64,000 nt of DNA, from the sequence record OQ540978.1. One strand, written 5' to 3'. Below are positions 56,600 through 56,957 of this stretch, piece after piece; the first letter of the stretch is position 1, and each line of letters starts with the position of its first letter. Under the pieces are notes generated by a model. That model saw only the letters and a program-made list of their open reading frames with translations. It did no database searches and was not told the DNA's origin. This DNA comes from Escherichia phage pEC-N1203-2Af.1. Position numbers and translations under genes: made by a program.

Positions 56600-56957
56600 C
56601 ACCGACTTATAGCCCTTGTGTTTATCAGAGGGCTATGTGAGGGTGTTCCTCATTAACTTATTAATTCAGGCATATGCCACACCGCTAGGGAGAGCTTGCT
56701 CGAACATCCGGTGCTAGACTAAAACCTGTTAATTTTCGAAAGACTTTCTAATATGTAGGGGTACATATTGGTTTGGGATTCAGGAGACTTCCTAGGGGTA
56801 GGGAGTCTTCACCAGTTGGAATAAGAGATAGCTCTAGAACCTGAACTCTTAGGCAGAGAAGGTCGGCAATGAGTACGCGGTCAGGATTAGTCTACTGACT
56901 AGGGCTATCCCTTATATCAACTGGCAATAATGCCTCCACTAACAAAGAGAGATAGGT

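What the first reader, a model, noticed from the sequence alone, without database searches (positions are those of the whole stretch)
56600..56730. Conserved intergenic stem-loop element, copy 1
Stem-loop ATAGCCCT..AGGGCTAT followed by TGTGAG, then about 70 nt later CTAGGGAGAG...ACATCCG. The same arrangement recurs at 62420-62545 with a different loop and a wobble pair in the stem, which looks like structural rather than sequence conservation. Neither copy has a U-tract, so these are unlikely to be simple terminators; RNA processing sites or a regulatory RNA motif are possible.
Basis: seen in the sequence. Interest (0 to 1): 0.45.

Follow-up and report, generated by a model that had tools for sequence, protein, structure and literature searches.

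The report
Conserved structured RNA module, phage early operon
Two copies of a previously undescribed, strongly conserved folded-RNA module sit between small early genes of this phiEco32-like coliphage and recur in three phage families; its fold is well supported, but what it does (RNA processing, read-through of terminators, or a small RNA) is still unknown.

Summary
The window is a phiEco32-like Kuravirus, and both loci lie in the rightward sigma70-driven early operon.

Each copy starts at the stop codon of the upstream gene and shares these parts:
- H1: hairpin with an AUAGCC/GGCUAU base, followed by GUGAG.
- H2: a small hairpin.
- H3: a 3-bp hairpin.
- M2: a covarying 6-7 bp stem P1, an invariant 7x7 internal loop (5' CUAGGGN / 3' NAACAUC), and hairpin P2 with an invariant GAG/CUC base.
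- M3: an AU-rich hairpin with a GGGG or GGGU loop.

Pairing is 97% with many compensatory changes, against 34-51% in slid controls. G-U pairs fit only the + strand, so this is RNA.

A covariance model finds exactly two copies per Kuravirus or Suseptimavirus and one in 7-11-like Moazamiviruses. Between window 50-64 kb and two 7-11-like 18-kb early loci, copy 2 is essentially the only nucleotide-conserved stretch. A canonical copy is on a Citrovirus-related contig, and diverged versions are in Klyazma and CVT22. Rfam has no match.

Copy 2 ends in a conserved intrinsic terminator. Copy 1 ends in long hairpins, one partly homologous to a P22-type N leader.

Function is unproven. My best guess is intercistronic processing and stabilisation with a sequence-specific recognition knob. 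Put-like antitermination and an excised small RNA are live rivals.

The parts
56598..56647 (+). Copy 1: H1 hairpin (56608-56637, AUAGCCCU/AGGGCUAU base) extended by P0 (AACACC 56598-56603 with GGUGUU 56642-56647). The UAA stop of the upstream gene (56597-56599) lies in the conserved AGUAAC. GUGAG is at 56637-56641.
   Evidence: In H1, 5 pairs are invariant and the others vary as C-G/U-G and U-A/A-U. The P0 pair varies C-G, U-G and U-A among lineages (read from the alignment).
56639..56651 (+). Copy 1: H2, a small hairpin GAGG-GUGUU-CCUC that competes with P0.
   Evidence: The same position in copy 2 holds a different hairpin with compensatory changes.
56669..56678 (+). Copy 1: H3, a 3-bp hairpin GGC-AUAU-GCC.
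   Evidence: helix 2 is 100% paired, and 2 of 3 pairs have double changes (GGC/GCC, GCC/GGC, CCC/GGG).
56679..56714 (+). Copy 1: M2 domain. P1 is 56679-56684 with 56709-56714. The invariant internal loop is CUAGGG+N (56685-56691) and N+AACAUC (56702-56708). P2 is GAG-CUUG-CUC (56692-56701).
   Evidence: 55.7 bits, E about 7e-13.
56748..56771 (+). Copy 1: M3, a 10-bp AU-rich hairpin with a GGGG loop (tip UAGGGGUA).
   Evidence: Compensatory A-U/G-C and U-A/C-G/U-G changes among Kuraviruses are visible.
56783..56810 (+). Copy 1: H5, a 10-bp hairpin with conserved loop UAGGGGUA.
   Evidence: The stem sequence differs in Suseptimavirus while the loop is kept.
56813..56934 (+). Copy 1: long irregular hairpin H6 (56813-56923), followed by the small hairpin GGCA-AUAA-UGCC just before the RBS and ATG (56958) of the phi32_112 homologue. 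The tip of H6 (56835-56901) is an insertion found only in some Kuraviruses and about 80% identical to the leader of gene N/24 in P22-like phages.
62405..62455 (+). Copy 2: P0 (AGUAAC 62405-62410 with GUUAUU 62443-62448), H1 (62414-62439), GUGAG, and the alternative hairpin H2 (GAGUUA-UUC-UGACUC, 62441-62455).
   Evidence: H2 covaries: GAGCUA/UGGCUC in Suseptimavirus and GAGUUA/UAACUC in SDYTW1 and 7-11.
62459..62553 (+). Copy 2: long-range helix P-L (62459-62479 with 62531-62553) enclosing H3 (62480-62489) and M2. In M2, P1 is 62491-62496 with 62525-62530, the loop is CUAGGGC / AAACAUC, and P2 is 62504-62517.
   Evidence: (75.5 bits). P-L is predicted independently in Kuravirus, Suseptimavirus and Moazamivirus. 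Its middle segment has 3 pairs with double changes.
62551..62559 (+). Copy 2: a perfect DnaA-box consensus TTATCCACA, invariant in all 15 aligned copy-2 sequences. Its significance is unknown.
62559..62576 (+). Copy 2: M3, AGAUAUU-GGGU-AAUAUCU. It is absent from most 7-11-like phages.
62594..62618 (+). Copy 2: intrinsic terminator GGCUCUU-UUCG-GAGAGUC, then C and U6. It is preceded by an A-tract and lies about 10 nt before the SD of the next gene (probable ATG at 62638).
   Evidence: The stem is conserved as far as 7-11 and the loop varies.

Best explanation
The two sites are paralogous copies of a non-coding, multi-hairpin RNA module embedded in the long sigma70-driven early transcript. The fold is shown; the function below is inferred.

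I think it most likely acts in cis as intercistronic punctuation:
- The stable hairpin H1/P0 starts at the stop codon of the upstream gene. It would cap and protect the 3' end of the upstream mRNA segment after endonucleolytic cleavage.
- The long helices are the likely double-strand-specific (RNase III-type) cleavage sites. These are H1+P0 (about 16-19 bp), P-L in copy 2 (about 18 bp) and H6 in copy 1 (about 30 bp).
- The H3+M2 domain has an invariant 7x7 internal loop and an invariant GAG/CUC base. It is a sequence-specific recognition knob for a still unknown protein, either host or phage. It ends up at the new 5' end of the downstream segment or on an excised fragment.

The net effect would be to uncouple the stability and translation of successive blocks of early genes. 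In copy 2 it would also work together with a leaky terminator to step down expression of the distal block.
For: Identity and context:
- The window is a Kuravirus. Both copies lie on the + strand, downstream of the only consensus sigma70 promoters (50715, 50934, 51239).

Fold:
- 25 pairs on 21 sequences of both copies are 97.2% paired, with 7 pairs changed on both sides; slid controls give 34-46%.
- The whole copy-2 structure has 62 pairs, 97.2% paired, with 10 pairs changed on both sides; slid controls give 43-51%.
- Many G-U pairs would be A-C on the other strand, so the folded strand is the sense RNA.
- It is non-coding: P2 length differs by 2 nt steps (24, 26 or 28 nt between the invariant blocks).
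- Both intergenic regions fold better than shuffles, with z = -3.9 and -4.8.

Selection:
- There are two copies in every Kuravirus/Suseptimavirus locus examined and one in each Moazamivirus locus.
- Copy 2 is the only substantial nucleotide match between window 50-64 kb and the two 7-11-like 18-kb early loci compared (L053, L054); the one other match is 31 nt.
- A canonical M2 with new P1 and H3 sequences is present on a Citrovirus-related contig.
- Klyazma and CVT22 keep the architecture with a diverged loop.

Processing-type features:
- The element begins at the stop codon whatever the upstream gene is.
- H1 has no U-tract.
- The tip of H6 is homologous to the leader of the N gene of P22-like phages. 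By my own knowledge, the lambda counterpart of that leader carries an RNase III site; I did not verify this here.
- In Klyazma and CVT22 the module occurs without nearby terminators. This argues that the common function is not terminator control.
Against: - No RNA-end, RNA-seq or nuclease data for these phages were found in the held literature, and the two key phiEco32 papers are not held.
- M2 itself is too short to be an RNase III substrate (P1 6-7 bp, P2 3-5 bp). RNase III does not need an invariant loop, so the most conserved part of the element is not explained by processing alone.
- P-L is clear only in copy 2.
- The AU-rich linker that might be an RNase E site is base-paired in copy 2.
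- Copy 2 carries a conserved terminator and a perfect DnaA box that this model does not require.
Confidence: 0.35

Rival explanations
1. Processive antitermination RNA, working like HK022 put. The nascent H3+M2 domain binds the elongating host RNA polymerase, alone or with Nus factors loaded at the promoter-proximal boxA sites. This makes the polymerase resistant to the intrinsic terminators that follow.
For: - The early operon has one promoter cluster but terminator-like hairpins on the + strand at 53116, 54446, 54531, 57295, 60587 and 62594.
- The copy-2 M2 lies about 65 nt upstream of a conserved terminator. That terminator is followed about 10 nt later by the SD of the next gene, with no room for a promoter in between, so read-through is obligatory.
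- There are two paralogous copies with compensatory changes, as for putL and putR.
- The authors of the 7-11 study state that an antitermination strategy 'remains to be defined' (PMC8948821).
- Five boxA-like GCTCTTTAA sites follow the early promoters.
Against: - Three terminator-like hairpins precede copy 1, so M2 cannot be the only device.
- Klyazma and CVT22 carry the module but have no excess of terminators in their early regions.
- The copies are 5.5 and 11.5 kb from the promoters, not promoter-proximal.
- No resemblance to put in sequence or form was seen. Put is a V-shaped two-stem RNA of about 70 nt with a triplex. HK022 itself was not fetched or scanned.
Confidence: 0.2
2. Source of a small stable RNA. 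Copy 2 yields either an RNA of about 165-215 nt ending at the terminator, or an H3+M2 fragment of about 90 nt excised from P-L. Copy 1 yields an analogous fragment. The RNA acts in trans, for example as a decoy for a host protein that recognises the invariant loop or the UAGGG loops.
For: - The whole 215-nt copy-2 unit is conserved at about 70% identity between phage families whose flanking genes share no DNA similarity.
- It ends in a terminator with an A-tract before and a U-tract after.
- P-L resembles the processing stems that flank excised RNAs.
- UAGGG is displayed five times in copy 1, in loops. That is 5 in 365 nt against 38 in 64 kb.
Against: - No conserved promoter: copy 1 has none, copy 2 has only a 9/12 match, and it is not preserved in 7-11.
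- Copy 1 has no terminator.
- No host homologue was found. The only E. coli match is a marginal 42-nt hit upstream of nrdD, and no Enterobacterales locus was found.
Confidence: 0.2
3. Ligand- or protein-responsive attenuator, riboswitch-like. The switching helix P-L encloses a conserved binding core (H3+M2). Its occupancy decides whether the downstream terminator (copy 2) or an RBS-masking structure (copy 1) forms.
For: - The architecture is an outer helix enclosing an invariant core, followed by a terminator within 45 nt.
- P0 and H2 are mutually exclusive, and the upstream ribosome stops exactly at P0. Compensatory changes are seen for H2; P0 shows one-sided changes only.
Against: - The only candidate antiterminator pairing (AAGAGC with GCUCUU) is 6 bp in Kuravirus and falls to 4 bp in the 7-11 group (inspection).
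- Copy 1 and the Citrovirus versions have no terminator.
- No Rfam riboswitch match was found.
Confidence: 0.1
4. DNA-level element. Candidates are a replication-origin component, a DnaA-dependent roadblock, or a recombination junction that promotes shuffling of early gene cassettes.
For: - A perfect, invariant DnaA box TTATCCACA lies in copy 2, flanked by AT-rich DNA.
- At least four unrelated upstream sequences abut the same 5' edge (AGTAAC) of copy 2 in different genomes, so the edge is a mosaic junction.
- CTAG is 6-fold enriched in copy 1.
Against: - Covariation with abundant G-U pairs on one strand only points to RNA.
- The DnaA box is absent from copy 1 and from the Citrovirus versions.
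- DnaA-box-like sites are not enriched in the window.
- GC skew follows transcription direction only.
- Mosaic junctions at conserved sequence are expected as a by-product.
Confidence: 0.08

Closest known systems
RNase III processing sites of the phage T7 early region (R0.3, R0.5, R1, R1.1, R1.3)
   Same: Both are paralogous intercistronic hairpins with internal loops in the host-RNAP-made early polycistronic RNA of a lytic coliphage. Both lack a U-tract, and the hairpins would remain at mRNA 3' ends. This comparison rests on my own knowledge, not on a test here.
   Different: This element has several hairpins. The best-conserved part (M2) has stems too short for RNase III, and no cleavage data exist. 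There is no detectable sequence relationship, and Rfam gives no match.
HK022 put RNAs (putL, putR)
   Same: Both have two similar copies in the early operon. Both are folded RNAs of about 60-70 nt made of adjacent hairpins with essential unpaired bases. Both lie upstream of terminators that must be read through, with no dedicated protein known.
   Different: The copies here are not promoter-proximal, and no similarity in sequence or shape was seen. The module also occurs in phages without early terminators. RNAP binding was not tested.
Lambdoid nut sites and N-gene leader (P22-like: ST64T, BTP1, L)
   Same: A 67-nt part of copy 1 (56835-56901) is about 80% identical to the leader between nutL and gene N/24 of P22-like phages. 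BoxA-like sites follow the early promoters.
   Different: The homologous piece is an optional insertion at a hairpin tip, not the flagged motif. No boxB-like GNRA-type loop is present, and no N-like protein was found. Lambda itself aligns poorly.
PeSL (promoter-early stem-loop) cassettes of T4-type phages
   Same: Both are repeated stem-loop modules between small early genes whose edges coincide with mosaic junctions. This comparison rests on my own knowledge.
   Different: PeSLs carry an early sigma70 promoter. Here no conserved promoter is present, and the conserved core is a structured internal loop.

Membership tests
Any Rfam 15 family | Score at or above the family's gathering threshold | tested here: not met
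   In the whole window, only tRNA-Arg reaches threshold. Permissive scans of both loci give only sub-threshold chance hits with E >= 0.2.
Intrinsic (Rho-independent) terminator | GC-rich hairpin immediately followed by a U-tract | tested here: not met
   The flagged hairpins H1 are followed by GUGAG with no U-tract and are not called by the scan. A separate true terminator exists in copy 2 at 62594-62618.
Sigma70 promoter cassette (PeSL-like) | Conserved -35/-10 hexamers after the stem-loop | tested here: not met
   Copy 1 has none. Copy 2 has only a 9/12 match, and its -10 is not preserved in the 7-11 group.
Protein-coding sequence / small ORF | Frame-preserving variation and a conserved ORF | tested here: not met
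   Length differences of 2 nt occur within the conserved block. The mini-ORFs are not conserved in Suseptimavirus.
RNase III processing site | About 20 bp of (imperfect) double helix | tested here: inconclusive
   H1+P0 is 16-19 bp, P-L about 18 bp and H6 about 30 bp. M2 itself is too short.
RNase III processing site | Cleavage by RNase III | not testable with these tools
   Needs RNA-end mapping in wild-type and rnc hosts.
HK022 put-type antiterminator RNA | Two adjacent stem-loops of about 70 nt that bind the RNAP beta' zinc-binding domain and suppress termination in cis | not testable with these tools
   Topology is loosely similar: H3 plus P1/P2, about 55-60 nt. Function and binding cannot be computed. 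No sequence similarity was noted.
HK022 put-type antiterminator RNA | Located between the early promoter and the first terminators | tested here: not met
   Terminator-like hairpins at 53116, 54446 and 54531 precede copy 1.
Lambdoid nut site | boxA followed by a boxB hairpin with a GNRA-like pentaloop, plus an N protein | tested here: not met
   No boxA lies within either copy (one search lists all sites). The M3 loops are GGGG or GGGU. Flanking ORFs match no known family.
Transcriptional riboswitch / attenuator | Conserved mutually exclusive antiterminator and terminator pairing | tested here: not met
   The candidate pairing is not conserved in the 7-11 group. Copy 1 lacks a terminator.

The most novel reading that the evidence does not exclude
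The H3+M2 domain is a new class of cis-acting antiterminator RNA that works like put. Together with the boxA sites at the early promoters, it would let host RNA polymerase read through the chain of intrinsic terminators in the 13-20 kb early operon. This would supply the 'undefined' antitermination strategy of phiEco32/7-11-like phages and control access to the distal early genes.
Probability: 0.18. Interest if true: 0.75.

Novelty: new variant of a known kind. Interest (0 to 1): 0.5.

Why it matters
phiEco32 is a model for phage takeover of host transcription, through its own sigma factor gp36 and the RNAP inhibitor gp79. Its early operon has still been treated as a plain string of small genes.

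An RNA domain kept nearly unchanged across Gordonclarkvirinae and Grimontviridae, with a canonical copy on a contig related to Zobellviridae phages, must do something important. Its core is invariant and its stems covary.

If it controls processing, it defines how early gene blocks are dosed. If it controls elongation, it would be a new antiterminator RNA and would answer an open question raised for phage 7-11.

Many Kuraviruses are therapy candidates and engineering chassis. Insertions near these junctions could disturb the element. It is also a ready candidate for a new Rfam family.

Tried and rejected
- Rfam at gathering and permissive thresholds: nothing.
- Sigma70 promoter after the hairpin: not conserved.
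- Coding potential: rejected because of 2-nt indels.
- Riboswitch-type antiterminator pairing: not conserved.
- Host RNA mimic: E. coli genomes give only a marginal 42-nt hit upstream of nrdD. A pattern scan of 185,579 species genomes gives chance hits, one Kuravirus contaminant (L244) and the informative contig L195.
- Wider distribution by exact pattern: IMG/VR and metagenomes give only Kuravirus, Suseptimavirus and Moazamivirus sequences plus chance matches that lack P1.
- N-like antiterminator among the flanking ORFs: PHROG and Pfam give only families of unknown function.
- Homology of the copy-1 insert to lambda itself: weak.
- GC skew as an origin marker: it follows transcription direction only.
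- DnaA-box enrichment: none.
- Literature: the Pavlova 2012 and Savalia 2008 phiEco32 papers are not held. No Kuravirus transcript-end data were found.
- By eye, I recognised no K-turn, loop E/sarcin-ricin motif, 11-nt receptor, self-cleaving ribozyme core or CRISPR-repeat mimic in M2. This was inspection only, not a test.

Full report
**Identity and context.** The window is a phiEco32-like podophage (Kuravirus, Gordonclarkvirinae). The region 55.5-58 kb matches about 100 such genomes at 90-97% identity and is colinear with phiEco32 genes 124 to 87.

Genes from about 52 kb onward are small and all lie on the + strand. The only consensus sigma70 promoters are at 50715, 50934 and 51239. By homology with phiEco32, the SU10 paper assigns all these genes to one early class transcribed from these promoters (PMC4281155).

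The two loci are the two longest untranslated gaps of this operon:
- 56600-56957, between the homologues of phi32_113 and phi32_112.
- 62401-62637, between the homologues of phi32_91 and phi32_90.

Both loci contain ATAGCC...GGCTAT followed by GTGAG, and 45-55 nt later CTAGGGNGAG...ACATCCG. The second pattern occurs twice in the window and in none of 100 shuffles.

**What the motifs are.** I aligned the two copies with their homologues from 10-15 other genomes. CTAGGG...ACATCCG turns out to be the two sides of a symmetric internal loop.
- The loop is closed below by a 6-7 bp stem P1 whose sequence differs completely between lineages: ACACCG/CGGUGU in copy 1, CCGAUG/CGUCGG in copy 2, and UCGGUG/CGCCGA in 7-11.
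- It is closed above by a hairpin P2. The first three pairs of P2 (GAG/CUC) never change, while its top and loop vary freely.
- The two loop-closing bases next to P2 covary as A-G, C-A or A-A. That is not Watson-Crick and suggests a non-canonical pair.
- A 3-bp hairpin H3 precedes P1 and also covaries (GGC/GCC, GCC/GGC, CCC/GGG).
- The flagged stem-loop H1 has an invariant base (AUAGCC/GGCUAU) and a variable top, including a C(UUCG)G tetraloop in many copy-2 sequences.
- H1 can be extended by pairing of the conserved AGUAAC/AACACC just upstream, which contains the stop codon of the preceding gene, with the bases after GUGAG (P0). Alternatively those bases form a small hairpin H2. H2 is supported by compensatory (two-sided) changes; P0 shows only one-sided changes such as C-G, U-G and U-A.

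**Counts.** For H1+H3+P1+P2 on 21 sequences of both copies, 97.2% of cells are paired and 7 of 25 pairs change on both sides. With partners slid by 1-3 columns, pairing is 34-46%. For the whole copy-2 structure on 15 sequences, there are 62 pairs, 97.2% paired, with 10 pairs changed on both sides; slid controls give 43-51%. G-U pairs are frequent and would be A-C on the opposite strand, so the folded molecule is the + strand, which is the early RNA. Length differences of 2 nt inside the conserved block exclude a coding explanation.

**The rest of each copy.** Both copies continue with UAGA and an AU-rich hairpin M3 with a GGGG or GGGU loop.

In copy 2, the sequences flanking H3+M2 pair with each other over about 18 bp (P-L). 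This is predicted independently in Kuravirus, Suseptimavirus and Moazamivirus and has three compensatory pairs. The unit ends in a textbook intrinsic terminator at 62594-62618. The SD of the next gene follows about 10 nt later; the PHROG alignment places the true start at 62638.

In copy 1, M3 is followed by hairpin H5, whose loop again reads UAGGGGUA. Then comes a long hairpin H6 and a small hairpin before the RBS. The tip of H6 (56835-56901) is an insertion present in only some Kuraviruses. It is about 80% identical to the leader between nutL and the N/24 gene of P22-like phages ST64T, BTP1 and L. Lambda itself aligns poorly.

**Distribution.** A covariance model of H3+M2 gives these results:
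- Exactly two hits in the window, at 75.5 and 55.7 bits, with the next best at 9.8 bits.
- Two in each Kuravirus or Suseptimavirus locus, and one in each 18-kb Moazamivirus locus (family Grimontviridae) at the syntenic place after the phi32_92/91 homologues.
- Whole-genome pattern scans confirm two per phiEco32 genome and one per 7-11 genome.

Between window 50-64 kb and the two 7-11-like 18-kb early loci compared (L053, L054), copy 2 is the only sizeable nucleotide match; the one other match is 31 nt. Metagenome and genome scans add only the same lineages and chance hits lacking P1, with one exception. A 48.7-kb contig binned as Flavobacterium (L195) scores 59.6 bits with new P1 (AAUAGCG/CGCUAUU) and H3 sequences. 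Its 446-aa protein relates it to Citrobacter phage CVT22 and Klebsiella phage Klyazma (Zobellviridae, Citrovirus). Those two phages carry a recognisable but diverged version of the whole module in their early regions: H1 with AUAGC/GCUAU and GUGGGAG in Klyazma (CVT22's H1 has a different sequence), then H2, H3, P1, loops CUAGGA.../...CUCCAUC or CUACG.../...CCUC, GUAACAGAG, and in Klyazma a hairpin with a GUAGGGGUA loop before the RBS. Rfam has no match.

**Function.** Nothing here proves a function, and no transcript-end data were found. The common denominators are:
- The element starts at a stop codon whatever gene precedes it.
- It begins with a stable hairpin without a U-tract.
- It contains long helices.
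- It has a small domain with invariant unpaired bases.
- It lies in the middle of a host-RNAP-made polycistronic RNA.

I rank intercistronic processing and stabilisation first (0.35). In this model, long helices serve as double-strand nuclease sites, H1 caps the 3' end, and M2 is a specific recognition knob. The model fits all lineages, including the Citroviruses that have no early terminators.

It does not explain why the M2 loop is invariant. It also does not explain the conserved terminator or the perfect DnaA box TTATCCACA at 62551-62559 in copy 2.

The main rival is put-like antitermination (0.2). The operon has terminator-like hairpins at 53116, 54446, 54531, 57295, 60587 and 62594 but only one promoter cluster. 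Read-through at 62618 is obligatory. The 7-11 authors postulate an undefined antitermination mechanism. However, three of those hairpins precede copy 1.

The remaining rivals are:
- An excised or terminated small RNA (0.2).
- A riboswitch-like attenuator (0.1). Its candidate antiterminator pairing is not conserved.
- A DNA-level role (0.08).

**Verdict.** This is a real, strongly selected, structurally well-supported RNA element that belongs to no described family. Its kind, a structured element of a phage early operon, is familiar. Its fold, invariant core and breadth of conservation are new. Interest is moderate, and it would be higher if the antitermination reading proves right.

Noticed in passing
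window 50660-51370 (+): Five boxA-like sites GCTCTTTAA (CGCTCTTTAA[A/C/T]AAT) at 50668, 50887, 50995, 51123 and 51361, interspersed with the consensus sigma70 early promoters (50715, 50934, 51239). The window total is 7, a count reached in 0 of 100 shuffles. An 80-nt perfect repeat (50667-50746 and 50886-50965) combines boxA, an AAATACTT-GAAA-AAGTATTT hairpin and TTGACA-16-TATAAT. This suggests Nus-factor (rrn/nut-like) antitermination of the early operon. One such site also lies in the early-promoter regions of Klyazma (L257:592) and CVT22 (L255:46347, minus strand).
   Followed up: partly
window 56835-56901: A 67-nt stretch about 80% identical to the leader between nutL and the antiterminator gene N/24 of P22-like phages (ST64T, BTP1, L and about 25 records). 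In Kuraviruses it is an optional 58-nt insertion at the tip of hairpin H6. This looks like horizontal transfer of an RNA-leader fragment between unrelated phages.
   Followed up: partly
window 53116, 54446, 54531, 57295, 60587, 62594 (+): A series of intrinsic-terminator-like hairpins lies inside the single early transcription unit. No strong promoters lie between them.
   Followed up: partly
window 62551-62559: A perfect DnaA-box consensus TTATCCACA lies inside copy 2. It is invariant in all 15 aligned Kuravirus, Suseptimavirus and Moazamivirus sequences. The flanks resemble an E. coli site upstream of nrdD at marginal E = 5e-3, found in 399 of 5426 genomes.
   Followed up: partly
window 56596-56960: Copy 1 holds 5 CTAG and 5 TAGGG in 365 nt, against 144 and 38 in 64 kb. 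UAGGG sits in the M2 loop, the M3 tip, the H5 loop (twice) and H6. The motif is SD-like and could pair with the 3' end of 16S rRNA.
   Followed up: partly
window 60370-60666: A third long structured intergenic region in the early operon, with different content. It has the hairpin AGGATTCT..GAGAGTCC+TTTGAG, several other hairpins, and a terminator at 60587-60620. It has no M2 motif.
   Followed up: no
window 62509-62512 vs L001 (phiEco32) copy 2: The P2 apical loop is the reverse complement in different genomes: GTGT here and ACAC in phiEco32. This is as expected from hairpin-loop inversion by template switching.
   Followed up: no
window 56423-56453 vs a 7-11-like locus (L053/L054 file) 8794-8824: A 31-nt, 90% match between the gene upstream of copy 1 here and the gene upstream of the single element of a 7-11-like phage. 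It hints that the 7-11-type element and its upstream gene are related to copy 1's context although the element itself is of copy-2 type.
   Followed up: no
L195 (JBOFGJ010000684.1, 48.7 kb, 'Flavobacterium sp.' MAG): The contig encodes a Citrovirus-like early region and a canonical M2. It is probably a phage contig mis-binned into a Flavobacterium MAG. L244, a 'Peptococcaceae' MAG contig, is a Kuravirus fragment.
   Followed up: partly
L181, L190, L191, L206, L207, L209, L214 (Pirellulales MAGs IP29b_bin.126 and bin.16): A multi-copy repeat in Pirellulales MAGs matches the M2 text pattern but has no P1 stem. It is an unrelated repeat family.
   Followed up: no
window 58867-58941: tRNA-Arg(TCT) is embedded in the early operon between the two copies. 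The early transcript must therefore be processed by RNase P and other tRNA-maturation enzymes in any case.
   Followed up: no
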